Source: Eubacteriales bacterium (GTDB lineage: Bacteria > Bacillota > Clostridia > Oscillospirales > CAG-382). Taken from it: a stretch of 64,000 nt of DNA. Position numbers and translations under genes: made by a program. Under the pieces are notes generated by a model, which did no database searches, was not told the DNA's origin, and worked only from the letters and a program-made list of their open reading frames with translations. Positions 40,009 to 63,789 of this stretch are shown one piece after another. Position 1 is the stretch's first letter; each line of letters starts with the position of its first letter. Location: positions 2,971 to 66,970 of the forward strand of contig JAZQFS010000016.1 of assembly GCA_045539625.1 (NCBI GenBank), in the 5' to 3' direction.

Positions 40009-41610
40009 CTAAAAGCAATGAGCCCGACTGCTCCAGATTATGGCAGTCGGGCGGTGCTGTATTCGGGCACAAAAACAGGGTTTAAATCCGAGATTAGGTC
40101 TCGGATTTGCCGCGGCACTTTGCCGCTGGTGGCTCAACATACCGGGCAGTCGAACACCCTGCTGTAATCCGGCGTCAATCTCCATAAGTGTAATTGTTCG
40201 GTTATCACCTGAATAGTTAAATGTTAATACGACCTTATCGTCATACACAAACACAGAATTTATGAAGGTCCTTATCAATCGTTTTTGACATTCTAAATCA
40301 GTGTAATCCATATTGGCAAACTGATGCAGGAAATAAATTATATGCTCTTTTGTAAGCCCTAAGTTTTCCTTTAATTTTGCCGATGCAAGTGCCGCCTTGA
40401 TCTCATTCTTTTGTTCATCAAGCTCGTCCATTCTCTGCTTTGTGGCATCGTTGAAAATGCCTTGCTCTATAGCTCTAACCAAATTGGAAATGGCTTTTTC
40501 TACTTCAGCCAAGCTCTTTTGCAGAGAATCTGTATATGAGGTGTCGGTATTCTGTGCTATGTAATACTGATATGTATTTTCTGCTATAAACTCTAATAGT
40601 TCTTCGTCCTGGACAAGTTTAATCACATATTCAAGCACAAGATTCTCTATCCATATCTGCCGAACCGGCTTTTTGTTACACAGTTTCTTACGTTGATTGT
40701 GACAGTAATAATAGTGATGGCGGTTTCCAGTTCTGCTTGTTCCGCACACCCCTACCATCATAGCACCGCATTTGCCGCAGAAAAGTTTTTCGGTTAGCAG
40801 ATATTCGACTTTAGAGTTCTTATGTGCCGCCGCTTTCTGATTGTATTTCAGCATTTCCTGAACCTTGTAAAAGGTTTCTTTATCTACAATGGGAGGAATG
40901 GCATTTTCCAAACGAACTTCATCTTTGTAAGTATATATGCCGATATATTTCTCGTTCTTCAATATTGTCCGCAGACTATTGTGCGTAAAAGGCTTTCCTT
41001 TTAATGTTCTGCAGCCTTGTTCGTTTAGCTTCTGCACAATTTCAGATATGGTTTTGCCTTTCGCATAAAGGTCAAAAACAAGTTTGACAGTTGGTGCGTT
41101 ATCGGGATCTATAATGAATTTCTTATCAGGACCGGTAAGATACCCTAAAGGTCTGTTGCCACCCGTGCTTTGTGCCTTTGCTGCACTTGCTCTTTGACCT
41201 CTCTTGATGTTTTGCGATAACTGCTCGGAGTAATAAGCCGCCATTCCTTCAATAACAGATTCAAGGATAATACCTTCGGGTGTATCGGGTATCATCTCGG
41301 CAACATAATAGATTTTAATGCCGTTTTTCTTGAGGTGATATTTGTTAAGTGCAATCTCTTCCTTGTTTCGCCCAATACGGTCTGTTTTCCAAACTATAAG
41401 TGCATCAAATTTATGCTTTGCCGCATCTGAAAGCATCAACTGAAACTGTTCTCGGTTATCGTTTCGCCCTGTCTGTGCCCTGTCAGCATACACGTGTATA
41501 ATTGTAAGTCCGTGTTCTGCCGCAAAGCGTTCAGCTTCGGCAACCTGACCTTCTATTGATTGCTCACCTTGTCTATGGCTCGAAAAACGGGCATAAACAA
41601 CAGCGTTCAT
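40009..41610 (-). CDS. large serine recombinase (integrase)
   Basis: N-terminal resolvase catalytic domain (AVVYARFSSHRQGEQSIEGQ, LIVWKTDRIGRN), recombinase domain, Zn-ribbon (CGKCGAMM...HHYYYC) and coiled-coil. The last ~42 codons run into the attL/terminator repeat. Confidence 0.88.
   Translation of the reverse strand: MNAVVYARFSSHRQGEQSIEGQVAEAERFAAEHGLTIIHVYADRAQTGRNDNREQFQLMLSDAAKHKFDALIVWKTDRIGRNKEEIALNKYHLKKNGIKIYYVAEMIPDTPEGIILESVIEGMAAYYSEQLSQNIKRGQRASAAKAQSTGGNRPLGYLTGPDKKFIIDPDNAPTVKLVFDLYAKGKTISEIVQKLNEQGCRTLKGKPFTHNSLRTILKNEKYIGIYTYKDEVRLENAIPPIVDKETFYKVQEMLKYNQKAAAHKNSKVEYLLTEKLFCGKCGAMMVGVCGTSRTGNRHHYYYCHNQRKKLCNKKPVRQIWIENLVLEYVIKLVQDEELLEFIAENTYQYYIAQNTDTSYTDSLQKSLAEVEKAISNLVRAIEQGIFNDATKQRMDELDEQKNEIKAALASAKLKENLGLTKEHIIYFLHQFANMDYTDLECQKRLIRTFINSVFVYDDKVVLTFNYSGDNRTITLMEIDAGLQQGVRLPGMLSHQRQSAAANPRPNLGFKPCFCARIQHRPTAIIWSSRAHCF
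40084..40132. repeat. attL of the serine-recombinase element (copy of the ssrA terminator plus CCACCA, junction J2)
   Basis: 49-bp copy of 36616-36664. Identity to the ssrA end stops after TGGTGG, and the element sequence (CTCAACATACC...) begins at 40133. Confidence 0.65.
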
Positions 41611-45562: not shown

Positions 45563-45584
45563 AATGGCACCTCTTTTTGCTAAT

Positions 45585-48628: not shown

Positions 48629-48812
48629 CGGTTTCAAAAATGCCATAGAGAAAAAACGATTGGCACTAAAAAACATTTCGCAAAATGCCGTGTAAAACAT
48701 CTATTGGCATCGATTTGTGCATCCAAAGCAAAATAAAAACTACCCAATTTCAGAGGGGTTATGTGAGGGGGATTTCGCGTAAGCGCAATTCCCGAACAGA
48801 ACAGGCAGAGAT

Positions 48813-48861
48813 AAGCCCAAACCGAGTGCGCGTTTTACGCAAATCTCGTTTGGGCTTTTTG
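48813..48861 (+). terminator. intrinsic terminator
   Basis: AAGCCCAAAC...GTTTGGGCTT followed by TTT. Confidence 0.65.
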
Positions 48862-48981
48862 CAGGAATAAAACTAATTTAATGTAAATCATTGACGACTC
48901 ACAGACACAAAGAAGAATGAGATTTTTGTGATATGGTAAAATATATATACGAAAAATCAATGAAAAGGAGTTGTCAAAATA

Positions 48982-49821
48982 ATGAAAAAAATTACTCAAA
49001 TACTAATTGAAGAATTTAAGATATTTCTTGTCAGCGAAGAGAAAAGTGATGCTACAGTAGACAAGTACATTCGTGATATCTGCGCTTTTTCAATGTGGTT
49101 AAATGGAAAGGAAGTTGACAAGCCCGCAGTCCTTGAATACAAATCGTATCTTGTTGACAATTACAAGCCTGCAAGTGTTAACTCAGTTTTATCTTCCCTA
49201 AACAGCTTTTTCACTTACAACGAGTGGTATGACTGTAAGGTAAAGTCCTTAAAGATTCAAAAACAGATATTTGCCTCAAAGGAAAAAGAGCTTACAAAAG
49301 CAGAATATGAGAGACTTCTTGAGGCGGCAAAGTCGAAGAAGAATGAAAGACTCTACTTGTTGATGCAGACCATATGCTCAACGGGAATTCGTGTGTCAGA
49401 ACTAAGATTTATAACTGTTGCTGCTGTTAATACAGGAGTTGCTAACATCAATTGCAAAGGTAAGCTGCGTCAAGTATTTCTTCCCAAAACACTTTGTAAG
49501 GTTCTCACAAGATATATCCGAGAGCAAAAAATAACAAGCGGCTTCGTGTTCGTATCACGAACAGGTAAACCGCTTGACAGAAGCAATATTTGGTCAGATA
49601 TGAAAAAGCTCTGCGAATCCGCAGGAGTATCAAAGGATAAAGTCTTTCCGCACAATCTTCGCCATCTTTTTGCACGCACTTACTATTCGCTTCAAAAAGA
49701 TATTGTGCGCCTTGCCGACATTCTCGGTCATTCAAGTGTGAATACGACGAGAATTTATACGATGGAAACGGGTGAGGTGCATAAGAGGCACATTGAAAAA
49801 CTAGGGTTACTACGATGCTAA
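48982..49821 (+). CDS. tyrosine recombinase (short Xer/invertase-like)
   Basis: Catalytic signature GIRVSELR (Arg), HNLRHLFA (His-x-x-Arg), LGHSSVNTTRIYT (His, Tyr). 279 aa. Confidence 0.88.
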   Translation: MKKITQILIEEFKIFLVSEEKSDATVDKYIRDICAFSMWLNGKEVDKPAVLEYKSYLVDNYKPASVNSVLSSLNSFFTYNEWYDCKVKSLKIQKQIFASKEKELTKAEYERLLEAAKSKKNERLYLLMQTICSTGIRVSELRFITVAAVNTGVANINCKGKLRQVFLPKTLCKVLTRYIREQKITSGFVFVSRTGKPLDRSNIWSDMKKLCESAGVSKDKVFPHNLRHLFARTYYSLQKDIVRLADILGHSSVNTTRIYTMETGEVHKRHIEKLGLLRC

Positions 49822-49825
49822 AATG

Positions 49826-50094
49826 ACATAATTCCAATTATGTGGTATTAAAAATAGCAAAAATCAACTTAACTCTACACAAAAGCATTAGAATTATAAA
49901 ATTACAGCACGAAAAGACCAATGAAAGAAATTAAAGTTACATTGGTCTGCTTTGTTATGCCTTAATTTGTAAAAATATTATGTAGTTTTACGTAAATCAT
50001 TGACTTAAAACACATTTTGTGATATGATGAATGGGTAAAATTGTGTTGGTATCGTCTGCAATCAAATGACAGTACCACATAATTGGAATTTTGT
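49826..50094. promoter_or_regulatory. invertible DNA element (inverton): 22-bp IRs flanking a 225-bp promoter-bearing segment
   Basis: IRL ACATAATTCCAATTATGTGGTA at 49826-49847. IRR TACCACATAATTGGAATTTTGT at 50073-50094 (18 bp perfect, 21/22 overall). It lies directly after the tyrosine recombinase stop. Confidence 0.7.
50000..50028 (+). promoter_or_regulatory. extended -10 promoter inside the inverton, currently facing the surface-protein operon
   Basis: TTGACT, 17-nt spacer containing TG at -15/-14, TATGAT. Confidence 0.6.
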
Positions 50095-50121
50095 AGTAAG
50101 CATTGGAAAGGAGGAAACATA

Positions 50122-50256
50122 ATGAAAAAAAAGCAATATGAAAAACCGGAACTTGAAGTAACAGTATTTGTATCAGAAGATATACTTACAACATCTTCAA
50201 ATATTGATAACAATCAAGGCGAGTGGGATCCGCTTTCGCCCTGGGGAAATTTTTAG
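50122..50256 (+). CDS. 44-aa peptide MKKKQYEKPELEVTVFVSEDILTTSSNIDNNQGEWDPLSPWGNF
   Basis: Strong RBS GGAAAGGAGG 7 nt upstream. First ORF after the invertible promoter. Missing from the ORF track, presumably because of a length cutoff. Confidence 0.5.
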   Translation: MKKKQYEKPELEVTVFVSEDILTTSSNIDNNQGEWDPLSPWGNF

Positions 50257-50277
50257 TAAGTACAAAGGAGAATTGAT

Positions 50278-51840
50278 ATGAAAAACACATTAAAATTAAT
50301 CGCATTAACGTTGGTTGTATCTATGCTTTTAATCGGAGTGGCAGTACCTGCTTCGGCAAATGGTGAAGCACCCGAATTGAGCATAGACTACTGCAACCTT
50401 TCCTTCCGTGACAGCGTGTGCATTAAATATGCTGTTGCATCAACAAGCACAGAAGAAACCACGGTTCTTCTGTGGGATGAACCTTCCGATGAATACTTGT
50501 ATGGCACACATATTGCCGAACTTTCAACCGTTGGCAATCAGACAATAAGTGGCGAAACATATAAGGTATTTGACTATACCGAACTTGCAGCAAAGCAGAT
50601 GACAGATGTTATATATGCTCGTGCCTATACCGTTGTTGACGGTGAAGCGTATTACAGCGATGTTGTAAAATACAGCATTCTTCAATATGCGTATAGCAAA
50701 CTCGGCAAGACAGGTACAGCATCTGATGATGAAAATCTCAAGGCTATGCTTTCTTCAATGCTCGAATATGGTGCAAACGCACAGAAGTATTTTGAGTATG
50801 ATGTAGACAGACTTGCGACAGATGACTTTTATAAGGTTAAAATTATAGGTGGTCTTATTGACGACCAGTGTAATCACGGTCTTTATCTTGAAGGCGACAA
50901 GGTTAATGTTATAGCACCTGAAACTAATAGCGATGGCGTTGAATTTGCAGGGTGGATAAATGAAAACGGTGATGTTGTTGCAGAAACAGCAGAAGCCACA
51001 ATAACAGTCGGAACTTCAAATGATGTTTATACAGCAGTTTATGGAGAAATTCCTGCTGACCCCAATAAGCCTGAAGCATCCGAAGGTCTTGAATATGAAT
51101 CCAACGGAGACGCCACTTGCTATCTTGTTGGCATGGGCGAATGCCAAGATGCGGACATTGTAATTCCCGAAACATCACCCGACGGTGATACAGTATTTGC
51201 CATCGACCGTAACGCATTTGCCAGTGAAGCAATAACATCTATTACTATTCCTACAACAATAGAAGAAATCGGTAGAAATGCATTTAACGGTTGTGATTCT
51301 TTGACAGATGTGTATTACCTTGGTACAGAGAAAGAGTGGGAAGCTCTTTGCGAAAATATTGCTACAGGTAATACCGCTCTTTTGAATGCGAATGTTCATT
51401 TCGCAAAGGAATCGATAACTTATGATGAACCTACAATCGTTGTTGAAAGTGTAACTGCAAGTGCAGGAGATACTGTGGAAGTACTTGTAGATCTTTACAG
51501 TAATCCCGGAATACTTGGAATGACATTGAAACTTGGATTTAATGACGAAGCAATGACACTTGCTAAAGTGGAGAAAGGAACAGCTCTAAGTGAAATGACC
51601 TTTACATCTCCCAAAGGAGAAGCTCTCAAAAACGGATGCGAACTTCCTTGGGATGCGGAGGAAGTATTGCCTGAAGATGTAACAAACGGCAACATCTTAA
51701 AATTAACTTTTGAGATTGCAGATAACGCAGAAACTGGAGATTACAATGTGACCTTAACCTACAATAACGGAGCCGTTATTGACAATGATATGCTTCCCGT
51801 GAATCTTGCAATTATTAACGGTAAAGTATCTATAGCATAA
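50278..51840 (+). CDS. secreted protein: unknown N-domain, BspA-type LRR, C-terminal cohesin-like module
   Basis: Signal peptide ...VAVPASANG. LRR ITSITIPTTIEEIGRNAFNGCDSLTDVYYLGTEKEWE. C-terminal module NPGILGMTLKLGFNDEAM...GDYNVTLTYNNGAVIDNDMLPVNLAIINGKVSI. Confidence 0.7.
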   Translation: MKNTLKLIALTLVVSMLLIGVAVPASANGEAPELSIDYCNLSFRDSVCIKYAVASTSTEETTVLLWDEPSDEYLYGTHIAELSTVGNQTISGETYKVFDYTELAAKQMTDVIYARAYTVVDGEAYYSDVVKYSILQYAYSKLGKTGTASDDENLKAMLSSMLEYGANAQKYFEYDVDRLATDDFYKVKIIGGLIDDQCNHGLYLEGDKVNVIAPETNSDGVEFAGWINENGDVVAETAEATITVGTSNDVYTAVYGEIPADPNKPEASEGLEYESNGDATCYLVGMGECQDADIVIPETSPDGDTVFAIDRNAFASEAITSITIPTTIEEIGRNAFNGCDSLTDVYYLGTEKEWEALCENIATGNTALLNANVHFAKESITYDEPTIVVESVTASAGDTVEVLVDLYSNPGILGMTLKLGFNDEAMTLAKVEKGTALSEMTFTSPKGEALKNGCELPWDAEEVLPEDVTNGNILKLTFEIADNAETGDYNVTLTYNNGAVIDNDMLPVNLAIINGKVSIA

Positions 51841-51853
51841 AGAGGCGATAATA

Positions 51854-53227
51854 ATGAACAAAAGAATTATTACAGTCTTCTTAACATTAATTCTAATTTG
51901 CTCGTTAACAGTTATGTCAAAGGTCAGTTTAGCTTCTTTTACCGACGTTCCTGACCATGAGTGGTTTGCAGAAAGCGTAGAATATGTAAAAGATAAAGGT
52001 TTGATGAATGGTATAACTGTTACCACCTTTGAACCGCAGACCTCTATAACTCGTGGAATGATTGTTACAATCATTTATAGATTAGAAGGGTCACCGGAGG
52101 TTAAGAGTGAGCTTCAGTTTTCAGATGTAAACCCGACATATTATTACTGCACTCCAATTATTTGGGCATCTGAAAATGGTATCGTTAACGGTTATAGCAA
52201 AGATACTTTCGCACCCGACGATGAAATCACAAGAGAACAGTTTGCAACAATTCTCTATCGGTATGCTGAGAAGAAGGGCCTTGATGTTTCGCTCGGTTCG
52301 GATAGTGTTGATTTGTCAAGCTTCGAAGACGAAAGTAAAATCAGCGAATATGCAGTAAAAGCTTTGTCTTGGGCGAATGAAGCGGGACTGATTAAAGGTG
52401 TTACAGTAACAACCCTTGAACCTCAGGGAAAAGCTACTAGAGCACAGGCTGCAACCATTTTTATGAGATTTGATAAACTTATAGAACAGTCTGAACAATC
52501 AAATTCTTCAATCGAATCTAAGGATGATGAAACAGACAATGATGAAACCGCGCCCGGCAAGAATGGTGATTCATCTTCAAGCAATGACAGTGGTTCCCCA
52601 AAAGACCCTGTTAAAAATGACGATAAAGATGATGGCAACAACGACAAAGATAATAATAACGACGATGATAATGCCGGAGAGTGGGATGATGTGAAAGATG
52701 AAAACTCCAAAAATGAAAACACTGGCAATGACTCTTCAAAAGACGAACCCTCGAATGATGACCCTATCGAGGAAGATGACAATGAAGATGAAGCCTATGA
52801 AAATCCAACGATAGTTGTTGACAATGCTTCTGTAAGAGCAGGAGAAGAAGTTTCGATAAGTGTTGAACTTCACAATAACCCGGGAATACTTGGAATGACA
52901 TTAAAACTGAAATTTGATGAAGAAGTGATGACGCTAACCGAAGTCAAAAAAGGAACGGCTCTTAGTGAAACTACATTTACGGCTCCTAAAGGCGAAGCAC
53001 TCAAAAATGGTTGTCGATTCCTTTGGGATGCAGAATATGTGTCAATCGAAGATGTAACAAACGGCAACATCTTAAAATTAACGTTTGAGATTGTAGATGA
53101 CGCAGAAACTGGAGATTACAACGTGACCTTAAGTTACAATAACGGAGCCGTTATTGACAATGATATGCTTCCAGTTAATCTTGAGATTATTAATGGTAAA
53201 ATTTCTATAAAACAAGGAGGATATTGA
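51854..53227 (+). CDS. cell-wall anchor: three SLH repeats, acidic low-complexity linker, C-terminal cohesin-like module
   Basis: FTDVPDHEWFAESVEYVKDKGLMNG, FSDVNPTYYYCTPIIWASENGIVNG, SEYAVKALSWANEAGLIKG. D/N/E/S-rich linker. Module NPGILGMTLKLKFDEEVM...INGKISI. Confidence 0.75.
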   Translation: MNKRIITVFLTLILICSLTVMSKVSLASFTDVPDHEWFAESVEYVKDKGLMNGITVTTFEPQTSITRGMIVTIIYRLEGSPEVKSELQFSDVNPTYYYCTPIIWASENGIVNGYSKDTFAPDDEITREQFATILYRYAEKKGLDVSLGSDSVDLSSFEDESKISEYAVKALSWANEAGLIKGVTVTTLEPQGKATRAQAATIFMRFDKLIEQSEQSNSSIESKDDETDNDETAPGKNGDSSSSNDSGSPKDPVKNDDKDDGNNDKDNNNDDDNAGEWDDVKDENSKNENTGNDSSKDEPSNDDPIEEDDNEDEAYENPTIVVDNASVRAGEEVSISVELHNNPGILGMTLKLKFDEEVMTLTEVKKGTALSETTFTAPKGEALKNGCRFLWDAEYVSIEDVTNGNILKLTFEIVDDAETGDYNVTLSYNNGAVIDNDMLPVNLEIINGKISIKQGGY

Positions 53228-53229
53228 TA

Positions 53230-56200
53230 ATGAAAAATAGATTCATATCAGCTTTTTTGGCATTTGTTATGATTTTTACAATCATTCCATTCAATGCTTT
53301 TGCTGCAGATGTTCAAGAGACAACTGCAGTTGTAAGTGTTAAAAATACAACCGCTGAGCCAGGCAACACTGTTACAGTTAATGTTGTGATTGAAAACAAT
53401 CCTGGAATACTCGGTATGACATTGAAATTGAATTTTGATGACAGCATAGCAACGCTAAAGTCCGTAAAAAACGGTGATGCATTAAGTGCTATGTCATTTA
53501 CCCCACCTACGGGTGATGCTCTGGTAAGTGGCTGTAATTTGGTTTGGGATGCGGAAGAAGTTAAGGCGGAAGATATAAAAGACGGTGTAATGGCAATGCT
53601 TACTTTTGAAATTGCGGAAGATGCAATTCCCGGTGCTTTTGTCGACATCGATTTTTCTTACAATAAAGGAGCTATTCGTGATTCCGATTTTTCAGCTATA
53701 GATGTATCAATTGTAAGCGGACGTATTAGTATATTAGATTATACCCCCGGCGATCTCAATGAAAGTGGCTATATAGATTCAACTGATGTTGTATTCTTGA
53801 GAAGATATATCGCGGGCGGTTATACTACTCCCGAGGGAAATCCGATAACTATTAATGAATTTGCAGCTGATGTTGATGATAATGATTATTTAGATTCTAC
53901 AGACATAGTTTCGATTCGTAGAAATATTGCTGGCGGTTACGGTGTTGAATTGCTTCCTCATACAGAAAAATGTAAGCACATTTCTTTGACTGCAATTCCT
54001 GCAAAAGAAGCAACGTGTACAGATGACGGTAATGTTGCATACTGGGCTTGTGACGATTGTTCTAAAGTGTTTAGCGATGCAGCGGCAACAACTGAAATCA
54101 CAATTGAAGACACCATACTCACTGTTGAACACCAAACAACATATACTCCTGAAAAAGAAGCAACTACCTATGCAGATGGTAATATAGAGTATTGGACTTG
54201 CTCTACATGCGGTAAGTTGTTTAGCGACAGCACATGCGAGAACGAAATTGAACTTAAAGACACAATAATTCAAAAGCTTACTGGTAATACATATACTGTA
54301 TATTTCAAGGATGCTCAAACAGGAAAAGCTACATTTGTAAGCCTTGATAATCAGGAAACATCGGTTTCTTCAATTACAAAAGACAAAAGCGAAAGATATG
54401 ATTTCCCTCAGTTTAAAAAATATGGGTTCTTCGCTTTGTGTCTTACTGACAGTAACGGCAACATAATTACTGGAATAGATGCCGGCACTACTGGTGATGT
54501 TGATGTTTATGTTCATTGGATGAGTAACAGAAACCAAACACGTCCCGTAAAAGAACTTGGAAAACCACAGATTATTGAGGATAAAGAAAACGGACAGATA
54601 TACTTCGTATACGAAATCGGTGAGATTGACAATGTGCCTATTGAAGTTTTGTTTAATGCCGGTGAAATAGACGAAGAAATGGTTCATGAAAAAACAAGCG
54701 TAAAGGTAAAAAACACTGCCACAGAAAATGTTACGGCAATAGCAGAAACAGTAGCGATGGCTACTACAAAATCCGCTTCGATGACATTGTCAGAAGATTG
54801 GATAAATAAGTATTCCCTTGACGAAGAGTGGGCAGCAACTCAAGATTCAGAAAAGGTTGCTAATCTCAAAAAATATATTGAAGATGGCGGTCAAATAAAT
54901 ATCAGTTCGCAATATGGCGGAGAAGATACACACACCGACACCTCTGGTTCAAGTACTACAGACACACACAAAGATACAACAGGAAAGGTAAATACCGAAA
55001 GTAGCGAAGACGGCGGCAATGAAGAAAGTCAACTTGCCGGAAAATTTGGGGCCTCATATTCTGTAGACGCATTAGGTGTTAAAGCGGGAATGGATTTTGA
55101 GATATCCGCATATCAGAAAGAGGGGTCTAATTGGAAGGAAGCTGAAAGCGAACAGAATTCTTCAGGAACAGAAGATTCCCATGAAACTACCAGGTATAAC
55201 GATATTTCAGATTCGTATTCTAACCATTGGAATACTGAAGAGGGTTATACTATGTCCAACAAAATCGGAACCGAAACCGATATTTCAACAGCGTTAAGAA
55301 CGGCTATTACGGAAAACTCCAAAAAGAGTTACAGCGACGAATACCAAAGAGGTTCCTTAACCACTGAATCACAGAATATTTCCCACAACGAGGGTCGCGA
55401 ATACTCTGCTGCAATTACTTTTAGTGAAGAAGAAGAGATTACCGACTCTACTACTGTTACATTAACTTTTAAAACTAAAGGTCATTACAGATTTATTAGA
55501 GCAGGAAAACTTGATGTTTACGCTGTTGTAGGTTATGACATTAAGAATAATACATATTCTGTATCTACGTTTAGTATGTTTGAAAAAGGAACAAAAGAAA
55601 TATGGGACTTTTCAGAAACGGGAACTTTTAAAGATGGAGAAATAGGCGTTTTACCGTTTGAGGTGCCTTATGAGGTAGAAGAATACATTCTTGGAGAAAC
55701 AGCGTATACCAACGGCCTTTATTTCAATATTGCAGAGGGTGCAGTAACAAGATATGATGGTACTGCCAAAAATGTATTGATACCTAATTATTATTCCAAA
55801 AACGGCAATATGACTTATGTAAGAACATTAGGCAATGATCCTCAAACCCTTAAGCCGCTGTTCGCAGGAAACGAAAACATAGAGGTTGTACGTCTCAGCA
55901 AATATATTACTTCTATTCCTGATGGTGCTTTTGAAGGATGTACAAATCTTAAAACAGTTATTGCTCCCGGTGTGACTTCGATAGGTGCTAATGCATTCAA
56001 GGGCTGTGAAAATCTCAACAAATTTATCGTTTCAACAAAAGTTACAACTCTCGGCGATAATGCTTTTGTTGATTGCCCTGAAGTAATAGTTAATGCAAGC
56101 AACTCGTCAGTCGCAAGAGCTGCAACTACTGCTGGGGCAAATAAGATAACCATAAATGTTGAAGATATGAGCGGCAAATTTACAGAAAAGGTGCTTGATG

Positions 56201-57828
56201 ACGACGAGAATGTTATCGCAGATTACACAAACGGCTATACAATCAACATTGGTGATATCGAATACTTTGCTTTCTACGGCGGAGGCAAAACATTTAACAA
56301 TGTTAAACTTGTGTCCAGTGCTGAAACGACATATATCGAAAAAGCAACATTCACAAGTGATAGTGGTATTTCATTGAATATTAATTCTGAAAACATTACT
56401 TTCAAAGGCGTTAATGTAAAAAATGACAATGTTGCAATGCTATCTCAGTTTGACGGAGCAAAGATATTAATTGCTGAAAATTCAACATTTGATACACTAA
56501 CAGATGATAAGTCAACAAAAGTAATTGTAAATAACATTGAACTTTCAAACAATGCTGGCGAAACAGCACAGTGGATAATTGACGGTACATTATATGTTTA
56601 CGGAAATACCGAATTTGCAGGCAAATATATAGCGGTTGCCAAAGCTATAACTACATTGTCTAAAACTGAGTTTGAAAACTATGTAACGGGTGTTTTCACC
56701 ATTACTTTCAACCCGGTCGGCGGATCTGTTTCCACAACCTCAAAATCCGTAACATATGGCAGTCCATATGGTACGCTTCCCGTACCTACAAGAACGGGAT
56801 ACACATTCACAAGATGGACGTTGTCTGATGATGATGCCACAATAAATGAAAGTAGTATTGTTTCTACACCGGCGGATCATACATTGATTGCACGGTGGAA
56901 GGCAAACGAATATACGGTAAAATTTAATACAAATGGTGGCGTTTGTTCTACACCCTCAAAAACAGTAACATATGGTTCGACTTATGGAGATTTGCCCACA
57001 CCGACAAGAGATTATTACGAGTTTCTTGGTTGGTATACGGCAAAGACCGGAGGTACAAAAATTACATCATCTACAAAGGTATCTATAACCGCAGAACAGA
57101 CACTCTATGCACAGTGGAAGCAAAAAGATGTTTCAACAAATTGGGTGCTCAAGTCGGAAATGCCGACTGGTGCTCAAGTGGTAAACACAAAGTACACCTA
57201 TGCCAAGACACATTATACCACTTCAAGCTCTTCCACAATGAGTGGTTGGACAAAGTATGATACCACATGGGCTTGGAGCAATTATGGCTCTTGGAGTGCT
57301 TGGCAGTATGGAGCTGTAACTGAAACAGACAGCAGAGATGTTGAAACACAGCAGGTTGTAGATGTTCCTGCACATACTGAATATAGATATGGGGCATATG
57401 TTGGCGATAACAACCGAGGGAACAGACCTTGTAGTTATTGTGCAACAGGTTACACTAATAGGACGCCTAATGAAGTCTGGACAGAATGGTCTGATTCAAA
57501 AATACCTACGCCAAGCGGATGGAATTATAAATGTTACCGTGCTTGCACGCATAAGGGCGGTCAGTATTTTTCCGAACCAGATTCTCCTGGTGGTCGTGGT
57601 CAAGGATACTATTGGCATGACTATGTAGTTGAGGGTTATAGCGATGTCTTCTTCTGGGAAGAAACTCGCCAAGTTGCAGCCACATATAAAACTCAGTACA
57701 GATACAGAGATAGAAGTAAGATATACACATATCACTTCTATAAAGTAGAAGACCTTGAATCAACTTCTTATCCAACAGGTGATAATATTTCTACTATCAA
57801 TGAATGGGTACAGTACCGAGAAAAATAA
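53230..57828 (+). CDS. 1533-aa secreted protein: N-terminal cohesin-like module, dockerin, CxxC pairs, large unknown central region, BspA-type LRR, Listeria-Bacteroides-type repeats, Trp/Tyr/Cys-rich C-terminus
   Basis: Signal peptide MKNRFISAFLAFVMIFTIIPFNAFA. NPGILGMTLKLNFDD. Dockerin segments DLNESGYIDSTDVVFLRRYIAGGY and DVDDNDYLDSTDIVSIRRNIAGGY. TGYTFTRWT and YEFLGWY repeats. RBS AAGGAGG. The ATG at 53230 overlaps the upstream stop. Confidence 0.75.
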   Translation: MKNRFISAFLAFVMIFTIIPFNAFAADVQETTAVVSVKNTTAEPGNTVTVNVVIENNPGILGMTLKLNFDDSIATLKSVKNGDALSAMSFTPPTGDALVSGCNLVWDAEEVKAEDIKDGVMAMLTFEIAEDAIPGAFVDIDFSYNKGAIRDSDFSAIDVSIVSGRISILDYTPGDLNESGYIDSTDVVFLRRYIAGGYTTPEGNPITINEFAADVDDNDYLDSTDIVSIRRNIAGGYGVELLPHTEKCKHISLTAIPAKEATCTDDGNVAYWACDDCSKVFSDAAATTEITIEDTILTVEHQTTYTPEKEATTYADGNIEYWTCSTCGKLFSDSTCENEIELKDTIIQKLTGNTYTVYFKDAQTGKATFVSLDNQETSVSSITKDKSERYDFPQFKKYGFFALCLTDSNGNIITGIDAGTTGDVDVYVHWMSNRNQTRPVKELGKPQIIEDKENGQIYFVYEIGEIDNVPIEVLFNAGEIDEEMVHEKTSVKVKNTATENVTAIAETVAMATTKSASMTLSEDWINKYSLDEEWAATQDSEKVANLKKYIEDGGQINISSQYGGEDTHTDTSGSSTTDTHKDTTGKVNTESSEDGGNEESQLAGKFGASYSVDALGVKAGMDFEISAYQKEGSNWKEAESEQNSSGTEDSHETTRYNDISDSYSNHWNTEEGYTMSNKIGTETDISTALRTAITENSKKSYSDEYQRGSLTTESQNISHNEGREYSAAITFSEEEEITDSTTVTLTFKTKGHYRFIRAGKLDVYAVVGYDIKNNTYSVSTFSMFEKGTKEIWDFSETGTFKDGEIGVLPFEVPYEVEEYILGETAYTNGLYFNIAEGAVTRYDGTAKNVLIPNYYSKNGNMTYVRTLGNDPQTLKPLFAGNENIEVVRLSKYITSIPDGAFEGCTNLKTVIAPGVTSIGANAFKGCENLNKFIVSTKVTTLGDNAFVDCPEVIVNASNSSVARAATTAGANKITINVEDMSGKFTEKVLDDDENVIADYTNGYTINIGDIEYFAFYGGGKTFNNVKLVSSAETTYIEKATFTSDSGISLNINSENITFKGVNVKNDNVAMLSQFDGAKILIAENSTFDTLTDDKSTKVIVNNIELSNNAGETAQWIIDGTLYVYGNTEFAGKYIAVAKAITTLSKTEFENYVTGVFTITFNPVGGSVSTTSKSVTYGSPYGTLPVPTRTGYTFTRWTLSDDDATINESSIVSTPADHTLIARWKANEYTVKFNTNGGVCSTPSKTVTYGSTYGDLPTPTRDYYEFLGWYTAKTGGTKITSSTKVSITAEQTLYAQWKQKDVSTNWVLKSEMPTGAQVVNTKYTYAKTHYTTSSSSTMSGWTKYDTTWAWSNYGSWSAWQYGAVTETDSRDVETQQVVDVPAHTEYRYGAYVGDNNRGNRPCSYCATGYTNRTPNEVWTEWSDSKIPTPSGWNYKCYRACTHKGGQYFSEPDSPGGRGQGYYWHDYVVEGYSDVFFWEETRQVAATYKTQYRYRDRSKIYTYHFYKVEDLESTSYPTGDNISTINEWVQYREK

Positions 57829-57837
57829 TCAACTATC

Positions 57838-57868
57838 AAGCGGTGGCTTTATGTCGCCGCTTAGTTTC
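57838..57868 (+). terminator. possible terminator (imperfect stem, weak T-tract)
   Basis: AAGCGGTGGC TTTAT GTCGCCGCTT AGTTTCT. Confidence 0.35.
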
Positions 57869-57899
57869 TAAACAATTCAGATAAAAAAGAGGTGCAAAA

Positions 57900-58436
57900 A
57901 TGTCAGAGTATGAGTTGCTCAGAAATGAAATTGTTGAATGTTATGATACCATAAAGCAATACAATTTGGCGGCATATGCTACTGTAGTGGCAATTTTTGC
58001 TTTTGCAACTGAACAGAGTGATAGTTTTTTATACTATTTAATTCCTTATGTTGCAATTATTCCGCTGTATATTGCGTGTGAAAGTAAAAATCATAATATT
58101 TGTAAAATTGCGGCGTATATGTATGTTTTTTTAGAAGGTGATAATAAATATAATTGGGAACGTAGACATCAAAAATATGATGAGCTATTTAGTCAAAAAA
58201 GAAATTGGAGATCAATTTCTTTATATTACTTCTTGTCAATATTATGTTCGATAATGTCAATTGTAAAAATCTATATGTTAAACTACAATTTACACATAAA
58301 ACTACTTTTTAGCATACTTGTATTTGTATTTACAATAGTTGTAATTGTTATTATGAAGGCAAATACTATCAATTATGTTGATTGCAGAAAAACAATGATA
58401 GAGAATTGGGAGAATATAAATAAATCAGTGGATTAA
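57900..58436 (+). CDS. 4-TM membrane protein, unknown function
   Basis: 178 aa. N-terminal soluble helix, two TM pairs separated by a basic loop (NWERRHQKYDELFSQKRNWR). Very AT-rich. Confidence 0.6.
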   Translation: MSEYELLRNEIVECYDTIKQYNLAAYATVVAIFAFATEQSDSFLYYLIPYVAIIPLYIACESKNHNICKIAAYMYVFLEGDNKYNWERRHQKYDELFSQKRNWRSISLYYFLSILCSIMSIVKIYMLNYNLHIKLLFSILVFVFTIVVIVIMKANTINYVDCRKTMIENWENINKSVD

Positions 58437-58514
58437 GTGCTAGATATGTGACATTGATAGAAAATTGTTGATTTCTTGAATAAAAGAAAAAGTTATAAAT
58501 TAATTGATAATATT

Positions 58515-58575
58515 GGACCGCCCTCTAAACAATTCTGCTTTAGAGGGCGGTCCTTCTTCTGTAAATGAAAATACA
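58515..58575 (+). repeat. hairpin-tail module C (terminator-like)
   Basis: GGACCGCCCTCTAAA...TTTAGAGGGCGGTCC, then TTCTTCTGTAAATG. The tail is shared with the modules at 60607 and 63342. Confidence 0.6.
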
Positions 58576-58700
58576 ACATTTTAAATATTATACACATCAA
58601 CACAAAAACTAAAAACAATCAATTGTCTTTAATTTGAGAAAGTGGATTGCATAATATTGCATATAGTTTTACAAGACGATATCAGGAGTAAATACTTGTA

Positions 58701-60376: not shown

Positions 60377-60606
60377 AATTCAACATTTTATTACATATTA
60401 TACCATAATATATTCGTTTTTTCAATGTAAATTTTGAAAACATAGCTTTAGTTTAGATATTTTGTCGAGCATATAAATGCACAATAATTTGATTTTAAGC
60501 TATAATTTGTACTATGAACAAAATAAAGCATTAGATATGCTTTAAATTGTTATATTTACATTTCAAAATGGCTAGAGTGGATATTTGATTGCGAGTAATT
60601 AAACAG

Positions 60607-60685
60607 GAACTACCACCCAAGCCAATCACATCTTGGGTGGTAGTTCTTCTGTAACTGTAAAGATATTTCTGTCAATATACAGAGA
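60607..60685. repeat. hairpin-tail module A (about 80% identical to 63342-63418)
   Basis: ACTACCACCCAAG...CTTGGGTGGTAGT, then TCTTCTGTAACTGTAAAGATATTTCTGTCAATATACAGAG. Confidence 0.7.
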
Positions 60686-60773
60686 TAGATATTTGTATTG
60701 TGTTTATCTGCTGCAAAAAATGTTTTTTTATTGAATTAGAACTTTTACATTATTTAATGTTATAGCACTAATT

Positions 60774-62354: not shown

Positions 62355-62367
62355 TTTTTCAAGCGAT

Positions 62368-63435: not shown

Positions 63436-63789
63436 TGGTGGAGGCGGCGGGAATCGAACCCGCGTCCGAAAATCCATTCATACACCTTTCTACGAGCGTA
63501 GTTTGTTGTTAAAATTCCCCTCACAGCCCATCAACAAACAAACGGGCAGGGAAGGTAGCTTCATAAGTTCATGCCACGGCTCAAAGCTTTGCCATGTTCA
63601 CGTTCACTGCTAATGTGACACCGAGTTTCGGGCCGCAGTACTCCCGAAGTCGATGACGCCGCACTTAGGCAGCGTAAGCTAATCTGTTATTGTTAGCGTT
63701 TATTTTTAGTGTGTGGCGTTTTAAAGAGCTTCCACAACCTCTGCTCGCTTAGCATACTTCAAAATCCCCGTCGAAACCTTGGCGCCCCC
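63436..63789 (-). ncRNA. ssrA: transfer-messenger RNA
   Basis: Minus strand starts GGGGGCGCCAAGGTTTCGACGGGGATTTTGAAG and ends GCGGGTTCGATTCCCGCCGCCTCCACCA. The internal tag reading frame GCT AAC AAT AAC AGA TTA GCT TAC GCT GCC TAA gives ANNNRLAYAA. Confidence 0.93.

What the first reader, a model, noticed from the sequence alone, without database searches (positions are those of the whole stretch)
50278..57828. Island-borne, switchable cohesin-dockerin-SLH set with no enzymes: three consecutive secreted proteins share one cohesin-like module
The same ~140-aa module (NPGILGMTLKL.F..., GDYNVTL.YNNGAVIDNDMLPVNL.IINGK.SI) appears in three consecutive proteins. It ends protein 1, an LRR protein (about 51427-51840). 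It ends protein 2, which has three SLH repeats and an acidic linker (about 52805-53227). It begins protein 3 (about 53311-53755), where it is followed directly by a two-segment dockerin (about 53755-53965). One tightly packed transcription unit (gene junctions of 13 nt or overlapping) therefore encodes a wall anchor, cohesins and a dockerin-bearing 1533-aa cargo. There is no glycoside hydrolase, the unit sits behind an invertible promoter, and it lies on an ssrA island. Cohesin plus dockerin in one polypeptide would allow head-to-tail self-assembly. This does not follow classical cellulosome logic and looks like a phase-variable surface coat or adhesin scaffold.
Basis: partly seen in the sequence, partly recalled or inferred. 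Interest (0 to 1): 0.7.

Follow-up and report, generated by a model that had tools for sequence, protein, structure and literature searches.

The report
Switchable cohesin-dockerin surface-display gene cassette
A gut Clostridia bacterium carries a mobile cassette that most likely uses cellulosome-type "plug and socket" modules to hang a giant adhesin-like protein, not an enzyme, on its cell wall; a small invertible DNA promoter next to its own recombinase appears to switch the cassette on and off, and the same design recurs in many gut bacteria without having been described.

Summary
Three consecutive secreted proteins (P1 50278-51840, P2 51854-53227, P3 53230-57828) each carry one cohesin. 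All three pass Pfam's cut-off, and the P3 model (pLDDT 93.6) matches solved cohesins. P2 has three SLH repeats. In P3 a two-repeat dockerin follows the cohesin directly. None has a catalytic domain.

The switch claim also holds. A tyrosine recombinase gene (48982-49821) is followed by two inverted sites, CACATAAT-N4-ATTATGTG, around a 225-nt segment that holds the region's best promoter. The spacers of the two sites are reverse complements in 12 of 12 genome loci and 80 of 80 metagenome loci. The window's segment is inverted (ON) relative to seven homologous loci (OFF).

The cassette is not unique. P3 has more than 600 homologues, named only "InlB B-repeat-containing protein". About 28 of 31 related loci show the same order: a cohesin-ended gene, then a Coh-Doc-headed giant.

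New here: in two near-identical cassettes (L033, L034) only the contiguous block of cohesins plus dockerin is replaced. This suggests they are cognate partners.

Binding, self-polymerisation and function were not tested. The ssrA-island claim is partly supported. Verdict: a new variant of known kinds (non-cellulosomal cohesin-dockerin display plus an inverton).

The parts
48982..49821 (+). Tyrosine recombinase (279 aa, XerD/XerA-like), the presumed invertase of the switch
   Evidence: Pfam Phage_integrase 108 bits. NCBIfam XerA/XerD-like below equivalog cut-offs, plus a weak match to tyrosine-type DNA invertases. Homologues of 50-91% identity lie directly upstream of the same kind of site pair in 11 genome loci and about 70 metagenome loci.
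49825..49847 (.). Left recombination site (IR-L): GACATAAT-TCCA-ATTATGTG(GTA), 4 nt after the recombinase stop
   Evidence: Inverted repeat I1, 22 nt, 95% complementary. Core motif located. Its spacer TCCA is the reverse complement of the IR-R spacer TGGA.
49848..50072 (.). Invertible segment (225 nt), here in the ON orientation
   Evidence: Its reverse complement aligns with the + strand of the segments of L033, L029, L027, L020, L019, L025 and L023 (A5).
49916..49947 (-). Conserved hairpin GACCAATG...CATTGGTC followed by a T-run on the minus strand here. In OFF-state loci it lies on the recombinase strand, where it would act as a terminator-like element
   Evidence: Read; conserved columns in A5. 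The terminator role is inferred.
50000..50028 (+). Promoter TTGACT-17-TATGAT with TG extension, 44 nt from IR-R, pointing into the operon
   Evidence: Top-scoring promoter-like site in 48600-58700. Equivalent outward-facing promoters lie 18-45 nt from one site in 11 of 12 genome loci.
50073..50095 (.). Right recombination site (IR-R): (TAC)CACATAAT-TGGA-ATTTTGTA
50122..50256 (+). Small ORF (44 aa) with a strong GGAGG ribosome-binding site, first gene after the switch; function unknown
   Evidence: Sequence. A 63% identical 42-aa gene sits at the same place in L033. No Pfam hit. It shares an N[QA]GEWD motif with the P2 linker.
50278..51840 (+). P1: secreted protein with an unknown N-domain, Flg_new_2, BspA-type LRR and a C-terminal cohesin (51433-51837)
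   Evidence: The signal peptide ...VPASA/NGE is read from the sequence.
51854..53227 (+). P2: anchoring scaffoldin with signal peptide, 3 SLH repeats (about aa 25-210), an acidic D/N/E/K-rich linker (aa about 215-318) and a C-terminal cohesin (52808-53212)
53230..57828 (+). P3: 1532-aa cargo. Signal peptide, cohesin (53314-53745), dockerin (53746-53958), two Cys/His repeats (53959-54258), uncharacterised ~445-aa core with an S/T-rich disordered stretch (54259-55803), BspA-type LRR (55804-56703), 2 Flg_new/InlB B-repeats (56704-57153), W/Y-rich C-terminal domain (57154-57825)
   Evidence: AF2 model of aa 28-345 has pLDDT 93.6 and Foldseek matches cohesins. Core domain: AF2 pLDDT 54.6 and no Pfam, PDB or fold match.
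51488..53929 (+). 'Interaction block': P1 cohesin, all of P2, and the P3 cohesin-dockerin, contiguous in the DNA. It is replaced as a unit in L033; a shorter version (52849-53979) is replaced in L034
   Evidence: Sliding DNA identity profiles and per-domain protein identities.
57840..57861 (+). Terminator-like hairpin 12 nt after the P3 stop; probable end of the unit
   Evidence: It is a weak match (short T-run).
63436..63789 (-). tmRNA gene (ssrA) that bounds the low-GC region
   Evidence: ARAGORN; GC profile.
40009..41610 (-). Large serine recombinase at the far end of the low-GC region; candidate island integrase
   Evidence: Pfam Resolvase + Recombinase + Zn_ribbon_recom.

Best explanation
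This is a portable, phase-variable surface-display cassette that borrows cellulosome assembly modules for a non-enzymatic cargo.

The switch. A dedicated tyrosine recombinase inverts a 225-nt segment between two inverted sites (CACATAAT-N4-ATTATGTG). The segment carries an outward-facing sigma-70-type promoter. In the orientation seen here (ON), the promoter transcribes a 44-aa ORF, P1, P2 and P3 as one unit. In the opposite orientation the promoter points back into the recombinase gene, and a conserved hairpin with a T-run faces the recombinase transcript, so the operon should be silent.

The assembly. All three proteins are secreted. P2 binds the cell wall through its three SLH repeats and holds out a cohesin on a long acidic linker. 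The dockerin of P3 plugs into that cohesin, so the 1532-aa LRR/InlB-repeat protein is displayed on the cell. P3's own cohesin, fused directly to its dockerin, offers a further socket of the same sequence type, so additional P3 molecules could be added head to tail. P1, an LRR protein ending in the same type of cohesin but lacking an anchor, can also take a P3 dockerin.

The interaction block. The cohesins and the dockerin are encoded side by side (end of P1, P2, start of P3). They are inherited and exchanged as one block.

What is shown and what is inferred. Shown: domain identities, synteny, the site architecture, both switch orientations among homologues, and the block replacement. Inferred: actual inversion in this strain, who binds whom, polymerisation, and an adhesin or surface-coat role.
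For: Domains.
- Cohesin x3, dockerin and SLH x3 all score above Pfam cut-offs.
- A profile of the three modules hits solved type I cohesins of anchoring scaffoldins: 4ums and 3ul4 at E 2e-7.
- The AF2 model of P3 aa 28-345 has pLDDT 93.6 and pTM 0.75. Its top 50 Foldseek hits are all cohesins, down to E 5e-11, with target TM-score up to 0.81.
- The dockerin has two Ca-loop repeats, DLNESGYIDSTD and DVDDNDYLDSTD. Each has S-T at positions 10-11 and R-R at 17-18 (read). From my knowledge of type I dockerins, these are the recognition positions.

Operon.
- Junctions are 13 nt and 2 nt, with ribosome-binding sites.
- The best promoter in 10 kb lies inside the segment.

Switch.
- The inverted repeat pair starts 4 nt after the recombinase stop.
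- The same pair follows a 50-91% identical recombinase in 11 other genome loci.
- The 4-nt spacers differ between loci but are reverse complements within a locus in 12 of 12 genome loci and 80 of 80 metagenome loci.
- Promoter orientation in the genome loci is ON in the window and L009, OFF in 9, and ambiguous in 1. In metagenome loci it is 10 ON, 36 OFF and 24 ambiguous.
- The reverse complement of the window's segment aligns with 7 homologues.

Family.
- About 28 of 31 loci found with the cohesin profile hold a P3 orthologue with the same domain order. It is always preceded by a gene ending in a cohesin, and that gene is an SLH-cohesin gene in 9 loci.
- P3 has 607 homologues at E<=1e-10.

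Cognate partners.
- Window vs L033: recombinase 91%, P1 N-part 93%, P3 Cys repeats 83%, core 73% and LRR 81% identical. The three cohesins are only 29-36% identical and the dockerin 34%.
- The breakpoints lie at the NNPGI motif of the P1 cohesin and at the end of the dockerin.
- L034 shows a second, shorter replacement covering only the P2 cohesin and the P3 Coh-Doc.
- Cohesins within a locus are more alike (46-73% in the window, 40-50% in L033) than cohesins at the same position in different loci (24-35%).
- The dockerin recognition positions change from ST/RR (window) to NK/FR (L033) in both repeats.

Precedent. R. bromii Amy4 binds its own cohesin, and LRR-dockerin proteins bind the wall-anchored Sca2 cohesin (PMC4611034).
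Against: - No binding was measured or modelled. Only monomer AF2 was available and model coordinates were not returned.
- Inversion within one strain was not observed. An exact-match search for the window's left site in metagenomes found nothing, and exact look-ups of the recombinase and P1 found no other contig.
- Dockerin-adjacent and upstream cohesins form separate clades within each lineage; the nearest neighbour has the same class in 87 of 92 cases. They may therefore have different partners, which would weaken the polymer idea.
- The block swap could be one recombination tract rather than evidence of selection for matching. In L034 the P2 and P3 cohesins are only 32% identical.
- Only 64 kb of the genome was seen, so other dockerin proteins, including enzymes, may exist.
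- The core of P3 has no recognisable fold. 'Adhesin' rests only on the LRR and InlB-repeat domains.
Confidence: 0.62

Rival explanations
1. Self-polymerising fibre or coat. The P3 dockerin binds the P3 cohesin of another molecule as well as the P2 cohesin, so P3 forms head-to-tail chains rooted on P2. P1 caps or diverts chains. This is a variant of the best explanation and differs only in topology.
For: - All three cohesins of a locus share locus-specific signatures on predicted strands 3 and 5: GILGMTLKL...L.WDAE in the window versus GI.SLK...TAPTPY.NPQT..MSP in L033.
- The cohesins co-vary with the single dockerin.
- The direct Coh-Doc fusion with a conserved DYxPGD junction is kept across the family.
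- Amy4 of R. bromii binds its own cohesin.
Against: - Dockerin-adjacent cohesins are an orthologous clade distinct from the upstream cohesins.
- The P3 cohesin is only 46-48% identical to those of P1 and P2.
- No binding data exist.
Confidence: 0.3
2. Enzyme scaffold with its enzymes encoded elsewhere. The three cohesins would recruit dockerin-bearing hydrolases from other parts of the genome, making this a small cellulosome- or amylosome-like system. P3 would be an adaptor that adds substrate or host binding.
For: - The cohesin subfamily is large (6940 representative clusters at E<=1e-3) and includes many multi-cohesin and cohesin-dockerin scaffoldins.
- Some related loci carry extra multi-cohesin genes (L011, L024, L026, L031).
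- Gut Ruminococcus scaffoldins with LRR and Flg domains have been reported within enzyme-bearing systems.
- The window's chromosome encodes GH3 and GH38.
Against: - There is no other dockerin or cohesin in the 64 kb.
- The GH3 and GH38 proteins show no dockerin.
- The dockerin is replaced together with the cohesins in L033 and L034. This fits a private partner set better than a genome-wide enzyme pool.
Confidence: 0.15
3. Displayed toxin or effector. The uncharacterised P3 core would be a beta-pore-forming or other membrane-active domain presented on the surface, as in the cohesin-dockerin toxin complexes of Clostridium perfringens (my knowledge).
For: - The AF2 model of the core has very long beta-hairpins flanking an S/T/G-rich segment.
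- The top Foldseek hits, although insignificant, are nearly all beta-pore-forming toxins in pore form: alpha-hemolysin, NetB, beta-toxin, Epx4.
Against: - Those hits have E 0.4-4, probability <=0.09, TM-score <=0.14 and rmsd about 30 A, on a model with pLDDT 54.6. They are therefore meaningless statistically.
- There is no Pfam or PDB profile match.
Confidence: 0.05
4. Not a switch. The recombinase would be the integrase or Xer-type resolvase of the mobile element, and the inverted repeats its fixed sites, so the promoter orientation would be static in each genome.
For: - The recombinase scores best against Xer-type models.
- No within-strain orientation polymorphism was seen.
Against: - Two sites in inverted orientation cannot excise the DNA between them.
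- The pair always brackets a 150-400-nt promoter-bearing segment right beside the recombinase gene, in about 90 loci with very different cargo.
- The matched spacers (92 of 92) are what strand exchange between the two sites requires.
- Homologous segments occur in both orientations.
Confidence: 0.05

Closest known systems
Cellulosome anchoring and adaptor scaffoldins (e.g. Clostridium thermocellum OlpA/OlpC/SdbA; Acetivibrio cellulolyticus ScaB/ScaC)
   Same: An SLH triplet plus cohesin acts as the wall anchor, and a protein carrying both cohesin and dockerin acts as the adaptor. The closest solved cohesins are exactly these anchoring and adaptor type I cohesins: 3ul4, 4dh2, 4uyp, 4ums.
   Different: There is no glycoside hydrolase, no CBM and no multi-cohesin primary scaffoldin in the unit. 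The cargo is an LRR/InlB-repeat giant. Expression is under an inverton. The unit sits in a mobile low-GC region.
Ruminococcus bromii amylosome (Amy4, Sca2) - PMC4611034
   Same: It is a gut Clostridia system. One polypeptide carries both cohesin and dockerin and binds itself. LRR-containing dockerin proteins bind the wall-anchored cohesin.
   Different: Amy4 is a GH13 amylase. Sca2 is sortase-anchored, not SLH-anchored. Expression is reported as constitutive. No inverton or interaction-block exchange has been described.
Non-cellulosomal cohesin-dockerin pairs (Clostridium perfringens toxin/glycosidase complexes; archaeal and bacterial examples surveyed by Peer et al. 2009) - from my knowledge; Archaeoglobus cohesin 2xdh appears
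   Same: Cohesin-dockerin is used as a general protein-protein connector outside plant cell wall degradation.
   Different: Those partners are mostly enzymes or toxins scattered in the genome. They are not a compact anchor-plus-cargo operon under phase variation.
Promoter invertons with an adjacent tyrosine recombinase (E. coli fimS with FimB/FimE; Clostridioides difficile cwpV switch with RecV) - from my knowledge; general inverton surveys
   Same: A short invertible segment sits between inverted repeats beside a tyrosine recombinase gene. As in fimS, the promoter is inside the segment. As with CwpV, the controlled product is a wall-anchored surface protein of a Clostridia member.
   Different: The site sequence differs: 8-bp arms CACATAAT/ATTATGTG around a 4-nt variable spacer. 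The recombinase is XerD-like. The cargo is a cohesin-dockerin set. No paper in the library links invertons with cohesin or dockerin, and none contains the site motif in this context.
Cohesin-bearing LRR/Flg scaffoldins of human gut Ruminococcus (bioRxiv 10.64898/2026.02.05.704116)
   Same: Scaffoldin-like proteins combine cohesins with LRR and Listeria-Bacteroides repeat domains, and these are proposed to promote adhesion.
   Different: They are described as parts of enzyme-bearing (amylase or GH) assemblies with transmembrane or sortase anchors. There is no mention of SLH, inversion, or a Coh-Doc-headed ~1500-aa family.

Membership tests
Cohesin domain (Pfam PF00963) | Profile match above the gathering score | tested here: met
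   P1 37.8 bits, P2 50.7 bits, P3 module 46.0 bits, against a cut-off of 24.1. The PDB profile search hits cohesins only.
Cohesin domain (Pfam PF00963) | Nine-stranded beta-sandwich (jelly-roll) fold | tested here: met
   The AF2 model has pLDDT 93.6, with beta-strands throughout residues 8-143. Foldseek top hits are all cohesins, E 5e-11 to 3e-6, target TM-score up to 0.81. Tested for P3 only; P1 and P2 are inferred from 46-48% identity.
Cohesin domain (Pfam PF00963) | Binds a dockerin | not testable with these tools
   No multimer prediction or assay was available. The only evidence is indirect co-variation.
Type I dockerin (Pfam PF00404) | Profile match above the gathering score | tested here: met
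   P3 aa 175-235, 33.8 bits against a cut-off of 22.9.
Type I dockerin (Pfam PF00404) | Two ~22-residue repeats, each a Ca-binding loop (D/N at positions 1, 3, 5, 9, 12) followed by a helix | tested here: met
   The loops are DLNESGYIDSTD and DVDDNDYLDSTD. AF2 places helices at model residues 159-170 and 198-209, right after each loop.
SLH cell-wall anchor (Pfam PF00395) | Three tandem SLH repeats after a signal peptide | tested here: met
   P2 has 3 stretches at E 2.1e-34. Other SLH proteins in the window (26375-31003, 36872-39817) suggest the host uses SLH anchoring. Wall binding itself was not tested.
Cellulosome / amylosome | Dockerin-bearing carbohydrate-active enzymes assembled on cohesin scaffoldins | tested here: not met
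   P1-P3 have no GH, CE, PL or CBM domain. The 64 kb holds no other dockerin. The rest of the genome was not available.
Promoter inverton | Inverted repeats flanking a short segment that contains a promoter | tested here: met
   The repeats are 22-24 nt, 95% complementary and 225 nt apart. The promoter at 50000-50028 is the best site in 10 kb.
Promoter inverton | Site-specific recombinase encoded next to the segment | tested here: met
   The tyrosine recombinase gene ends 4 nt before IR-L. The linkage is conserved in about 80 loci.
Promoter inverton | Both orientations present | tested here: inconclusive
   Both orientations are seen among homologous loci of different genomes. They were not seen within one strain, and no reads or near-identical contigs were found.
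Tyrosine-recombinase core site | Two inverted binding arms around an asymmetric overlap that is identical in the two partner sites | tested here: met
   The arms are CACATAAT and ATTATGTG. The 4-nt spacers are reverse complements between partners in 12 of 12 and 80 of 80 loci, while they vary between loci.
ssrA (tmRNA) genomic island | Insertion next to the 3' end of ssrA, with an integrase and a duplicated att segment | tested here: inconclusive
   The tmRNA gene is at 63436-63789. GC is 0.28-0.39 from about 38 kb to 64 kb, against about 0.46 elsewhere. A large serine recombinase gene lies at 40009-41610. An 87-nt, 80% identical repeat of the ssrA-proximal flank lies at 60603-60689. No duplicate of the tmRNA 3' end itself was found.

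The most novel reading that the evidence does not exclude
The cassette encodes a private, self-assembling surface polymer. P3 chains grow head to tail from the SLH anchor through a cohesin-dockerin pair whose specificity is set by an exchangeable 'interaction block'. Lineages carrying different blocks would then build mutually incompatible coats. The coat is switched on and off stochastically by a widespread, so far undescribed Clostridia inverton family (CACATAAT-N4-ATTATGTG plus a XerD-like invertase). Block exchange would serve to diversify the surface, for kin-specific aggregation or for escape from phage or antibody, rather than to scaffold enzymes.
Probability: 0.2. Interest if true: 0.8.

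Novelty: new variant of a known kind. Interest (0 to 1): 0.62.

Why it matters
Cohesin-dockerin systems are studied almost only as enzyme scaffolds for fibre and starch breakdown. Here the same connectors are the core of a conserved gene set with more than 600 homologues, spread across Oscillospiraceae, Acutalibacteraceae, Lachnospiraceae and relatives from human and ruminant guts. Its cargo is a giant LRR/InlB-repeat protein of unknown function, annotated only as 'InlB B-repeat-containing protein'.

Three points make it useful.
1. It gives a testable model for how wall-anchored adhesin-like proteins are displayed and phase-varied in poorly studied gut Firmicutes.
2. The block replacement offers natural 'specificity alleles' of matched cohesin-dockerin sets in otherwise near-identical proteins. 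These are ready-made material for studying, or engineering, orthogonal cohesin-dockerin pairs.
3. The switch belongs to a large inverton family with a simple, recognisable site. The spacer co-variation is clean enough to serve as a search rule for invertons in Clostridia genomes without read data.

Tried and rejected
- A word-indexed homology search with the isolated P2 cohesin returned nothing. This reflects a limit of the index, because the exhaustive profile search found 6940 clusters.
- Exact-sequence look-ups of the window's recombinase and P1 found no other contig. An exact search for the window's left site in metagenome contigs also found nothing. Within-strain orientation polymorphism therefore could not be checked.
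- The P3 core (aa 346-870) gave a poor AF2 model with pLDDT 54.6. It had no significant Foldseek hit, no PDB hit with a family profile and no Pfam hit in 8 family members. I reject any functional call for it. The run of pore-forming toxins among the insignificant hits is recorded only as a hint.
- PADLOC gave nothing on the operon or the recombinase. I dropped the anti-phage-defence reading for lack of support.
- The small ORF has no Pfam match. A regex did not find it in the more distant loci.
- Host identity could not be fixed. ProRS is at most 93% identical to proteins of unnamed MAGs labelled Clostridia or Oscillospiraceae. The best genome locus for the cohesins is only 56% identical.
- I considered whether the three modules might be Ig-like or Big domains rather than cohesins. 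Big_10 scored only E 0.035, below its cut-off, so I rejected this.
- I considered that the inverted repeats were a transcription terminator or operator palindrome. I rejected this because of the 225-nt spacing, the conserved recombinase linkage and the spacer co-variation.

Full report
**1. The observation**

The region holds three consecutive + strand ORFs:
- P1: 50278-51840, 520 aa.
- P2: 51854-53227, 457 aa.
- P3: listed from a TTG at 53224, 1534 aa.

The database copy of the window's own P3 protein is 1532 aa (P0151). An AAGGAGGA ribosome-binding site lies 9 nt before the ATG at 53230. I therefore take 53230 as the P3 start.

The P1 stop and the P2 ATG are 13 nt apart. The P2 stop is 2 nt before the P3 ATG. 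All three proteins begin with typical signal peptides, read.

P1/P2 are 73-74% identical and P1/P3 46-48%. tblastn E-values are 1e-37 to 1e-64. The observation and its coordinates are confirmed.

**2. What the modules are**

Pfam calls the module a cohesin in all three proteins, above the curated cut-off of 24.1 bits. P1 scores 37.8 and P2 50.7 bits. The P3 module scores 46.0 bits when scanned alone; it was not listed when the whole 1534-aa protein was scanned.

Other evidence agrees:
- A profile of the three modules hits only cohesins in the PDB. The best hits are type I cohesins of anchoring and adaptor scaffoldins: 4ums, 3ul4, 4dh2, 4uyp.
- An AlphaFold2 model of P3 residues 28-345, built with 31 homologues, is confident (pLDDT 93.6, pTM 0.75).
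- Its 50 best Foldseek matches in the PDB are all cohesins, down to E 5e-11, with target TM-score up to 0.81.

Pfam also finds:
- a type I dockerin in P3 at residues 175-235;
- three SLH repeats in P2;
- BspA-type LRR and a divergent InlB B-repeat in P1;
- BspA-type LRR and two Listeria-Bacteroides repeats in P3.

The dockerin has two canonical Ca-loop-plus-helix repeats, DLNESGYIDSTD... and DVDDNDYLDSTD... Each carries Ser-Thr at positions 10-11 and Arg-Arg at 17-18. From my knowledge of type I dockerins, these are the usual recognition positions. The near symmetry of the repeats would allow the dual binding mode.

No catalytic or carbohydrate-binding family is present. The 64 kb holds no further cohesin or dockerin.

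The ~445-aa core of P3 (54259-55803) and its W/Y-rich C-terminus have no Pfam, PDB or fold match.

**3. The switch**

A 279-aa tyrosine recombinase gene (48982-49821) ends 4 nt before a 22-24-nt inverted repeat pair, at 49826-49847 and 50073-50094. The pair is 95% complementary and 225 nt apart.

Inside the segment, 44 nt from the right repeat and pointing into the operon, is TTGACT-17-TATGAT with a TG extension. This is the top-scoring promoter-like site in 48600-58700.

Each repeat is itself a core site: 8-bp arms CACATAAT and ATTATGTG around a 4-nt spacer.

Among the 31 genome loci retrieved with the cohesin profile, ten have a recombinase 50-73% identical to the window's, upstream on the same strand. 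In all ten the same kind of site pair starts 7-33 nt after the recombinase stop. L033, found through a P3 homologue, adds an eleventh locus with a 91% identical recombinase.

The spacers differ from locus to locus, for example TCCA, TCTG, CAGC, TTCG, GATG and TAAC. Within a locus, however, the two spacers are exact reverse complements, in 12 of 12 loci.

I then scanned metagenome contigs for the site pattern. Of these:
- 80 had a second site 120-500 nt away, and in 80 of 80 the spacers were reverse complements. Chance would give 1 in 256 each.
- A recombinase homologue sat a median of 23 nt from the proximal site.

This is the pattern expected of tyrosine-recombinase sites that must share an identical asymmetric overlap and lie in inverted orientation. 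Such sites give inversion, not excision.

**4. Both orientations exist**

In the window and in L009 the strongest promoter in the segment faces the operon. In L001, L013, L019, L020, L023, L025, L027, L029 and L033 it lies 18-45 nt from the recombinase-proximal site and faces the recombinase. L002 is ambiguous.

The reverse complement of the window's segment aligns with the + strand of seven of these loci. The shared features are the -35 and -10 hexamers and a conserved hairpin, GACCxATG...CATxGGTC, followed by a T-run (A5). The window is therefore ON relative to OFF homologues.

In 70 metagenome loci the call was 10 ON, 36 OFF and 24 ambiguous.

In the OFF state the hairpin and T-run lie on the recombinase strand. 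There they could stop read-through into the operon; this role is inferred.

I did not see both states within one strain. Exact look-ups and an exact site search found no near-identical contigs.

The first genes downstream of this inverton family in metagenomes are diverse: TetR regulators in 6 of 45, EAL and response-regulator proteins, MatE, many large secreted proteins, and one dockerin protein. The switch is thus a general portable module, and the cohesin cassette is one of its cargoes.

**5. The cassette is a conserved family**

About 28 of the 31 genome loci encode a P3 orthologue with the same order: cohesin, dockerin, Cys/His repeats, core, LRR, Flg_new repeats, C-terminal domain. The gene directly before it always ends in one or more cohesins. 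In nine loci that gene is an SLH-cohesin protein.

The hosts are gut or rumen Clostridia: Oscillospiraceae, Acutalibacteraceae, Faecousia, Ruminococcus sp. zg-924, Lachnospiraceae, Jutongia hominis and Clostridium sp. AM49-4BH.

P3 has 607 homologues at E<=1e-10, and more than 120 are near full length. The only name any source gives them is 'InlB B-repeat-containing protein'.

The cohesin subfamily has 6940 representative clusters at E<=1e-3. It includes multi-cohesin, SLH-cohesin and cohesin-dockerin architectures.

The window's host is an unnamed Clostridia or Oscillospiraceae-like organism; its ProRS is at most 93% identical to MAG proteins.

**6. The interaction block**

L033 (GCA_054271695.1) carries the same five genes: recombinase, 42-aa ORF, P1, P2, P3. 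Identity between the window and L033, domain by domain:

| Domain | Identity |
|---|---|
| Recombinase | 91% |
| Small ORF | 63% |
| P1 N-part | 93% |
| P1 cohesin | 36% |
| P2 SLH | 62% |
| P2 linker | 36% |
| P2 cohesin | 29% |
| P3 cohesin | 32% |
| P3 dockerin | 34% |
| P3 Cys repeats | 83% |
| P3 core | 73% |
| P3 LRR | 81% |

The DNA identity profile shows 84-96% up to 51487, then 35-74% from 51488 to 53929, then 63-94% from 53930 to about 56780. One contiguous block has therefore been replaced: the P1 cohesin, P2, and the P3 cohesin-dockerin. Its ends lie at the conserved NNPGI motif of the P1 cohesin and at the end of the dockerin.

L034 shows a second, shorter replacement. The P2 SLH and linker stay 73-89% identical. 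The stretch 52849-53979 (P2 cohesin plus P3 cohesin-dockerin) drops to 42-57%. The P3 body returns to 72-93%.

Two further observations fit matched partner sets:
- Within a locus the cohesins resemble each other (46-73% in the window, 40-50% in L033) more than cohesins at the same position in different loci (24-35%). They share locus-specific signatures on predicted strands 3 and 5. From my knowledge of type I cohesins, these strands are part of the dockerin-binding face.
- The dockerin recognition positions change in both repeats, from ST/RR in the window to NK/FR in L033.

I read this as evidence that the dockerin and the cohesins of one operon are cognate partners, encoded side by side so that they travel together. 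A single neutral recombination tract cannot be excluded.

A neighbour-joining tree of 92 cohesins shows dockerin-adjacent and upstream cohesins as separate clades within each lineage. The two classes may therefore still differ in role.

**7. How it most likely works**

When the segment is ON, one transcript covers the small ORF, P1, P2 and P3, and ends near a weak hairpin at 57840-57861.

- P2 anchors to the wall through SLH and presents its cohesin on an acidic linker.
- The P3 dockerin binds that cohesin and so displays the LRR/InlB-repeat giant.
- P3's own cohesin gives a further socket, which may take another P3 and so form chains.
- P1, an unanchored LRR protein with the same cohesin type, can also bind a P3 dockerin. 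It could act as a soluble partner, a cap or a competitor.

The domain identities, the synteny, the site architecture and the block replacement are shown. The binding pattern, polymerisation and an adhesin or coat role are inferred.

Precedent exists. R. bromii Amy4 binds its own cohesin, and LRR-dockerin proteins bind the wall-anchored Sca2 cohesin (PMC4611034). LRR- and Flg-bearing scaffoldins were recently catalogued in gut Ruminococcus (bioRxiv 10.64898/2026.02.05.704116).

**8. The island claim**

The following features support an island:
- A tmRNA gene lies at 63436-63789 on the minus strand.
- GC falls from about 0.46 to 0.28-0.39 between about 38 kb and 64 kb.
- A large serine recombinase gene lies at 40009-41610, with HTH, Fic and ParA-like genes around it.
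- The 87 nt next to the tmRNA 3' end (63337-63423) recur at 60603-60689 with 80% identity. This suggests stepwise accretion of elements at ssrA.

In L033 the near-identical cassette lies beside two large serine recombinases and a DUF927 gene, but in a different chromosomal context. Homology between the two cassettes begins at 48850 and ends near 57100, inside P3.

The cassette is therefore a module carried by different mobile contexts. 'ssrA island' is plausible, but no clean att duplication shows it.

**9. Novelty and verdict**

Each ingredient is known: non-cellulosomal cohesin-dockerin pairs, SLH anchoring scaffoldins, a polypeptide with both modules, and promoter invertons for surface proteins.

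I could not find three things described:
- the conserved cassette with a Coh-Doc-headed ~1500-aa LRR protein;
- its control by this inverton family;
- the block exchange of matched cohesins and dockerin.

No paper in the library combines inverton terms with cohesin or dockerin, and the site motif is absent in this context. I rate the finding a new variant of known kinds, with interest about 0.6.

Two claims are overstated: that the set is singular, and that it departs from cellulosome assembly logic.

Noticed in passing
window 50122-50256; also 52676 (P2 linker); L033 4483-4611 and 7018; L034 545: The 44-aa ORF right after the switch (MKKKQYEKPELEVTVFVSEDILTTSS...NQGEWD...) is conserved in L033 (63% identical). 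Its motif N[QA]GEWD, preceded by a D/N-rich run, also occurs in the acidic linker of P2 in the window, L033 and L034. It has no Pfam match and its function is unknown.
   Followed up: partly
window 57100-57828 (P3 C-terminal ~240 aa) versus L032, L033, L034: Homology with the closest P3 relatives (59-91% identical elsewhere) stops abruptly near 57100. Their C-terminal domains are unrelated, and in L032 and L034 a 558-aa protein with no Pfam hit follows. The window's W/Y-rich C-terminus is the type found in many distant loci (30-42% identity). This is a second exchangeable module of P3.
   Followed up: partly
window 54259-55803 (P3 core): This uncharacterised ~445-aa domain is conserved across the family (WxSxRN, PxIIED, FVYEIGxIxNVP, GYYRxVxAGTVHVFAVVGYD motifs). 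It contains a ~130-aa S/T/G-rich low-confidence stretch and very long predicted beta-hairpins. Its Foldseek hits are insignificant but are nearly all beta-pore-forming toxins.
   Followed up: partly
Spacers were reverse complements in 80 of 80 pairs. The cargo is diverse: TetR regulators, EAL and response-regulator proteins, MatE, lipoproteins and secreted giants of 740-1900 aa.
   Followed up: partly
window 48874-48940 versus 49983-50031: The region upstream of the recombinase gene repeats elements of the invertible promoter (GTAAATCATTGAC and TTTTGTGATATG[GA]T). The spacing differs, however: 35 nt rather than 17 nt between the hexamers. This could be a shared regulator site or a relic.
   Followed up: no
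window 36615-36664 and 40083-40132: A 50-nt direct repeat (98% identical) containing a hairpin brackets a 981-aa SLH plus trypsin-like protease gene (36872-39817). It reaches into the 3' end of the large serine recombinase ORF. It may mark the att sites of a separate insertion.
   Followed up: no
window 60603-60689 and 63337-63423: An 87-nt repeat (80% identical) of the sequence just downstream of the tmRNA 3' end, including its hairpin. It suggests that 60690-63336 is a later insertion next to ssrA and that the cohesin-bearing element sits behind it.
   Followed up: no
window 58701-60376 (minus strand): A ParA/MinD-like ATPase with a C-terminal transmembrane/coiled region (384 aa) overlaps by 4 nt a 174-aa multi-pass membrane protein. 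GC is very low (0.28), and there are only weak PADLOC hits (PDC-M28B, mad8).
   Followed up: no
window 41686-45613 (minus strand): A 956-aa protein with no family match is followed by a Fic/DOC protein and an HTH protein beside the serine recombinase. A 348-aa Fic gene also follows the cassette in L033 and L034.
   Followed up: no
window 26375-35070: The chromosomal flank encodes a 1542-aa SLH protein with WbsX-like and Cu_amine_oxidN1 domains and a 1210-aa beta-helix repeat protein. The host therefore makes other large SLH-anchored surface proteins.
   Followed up: no
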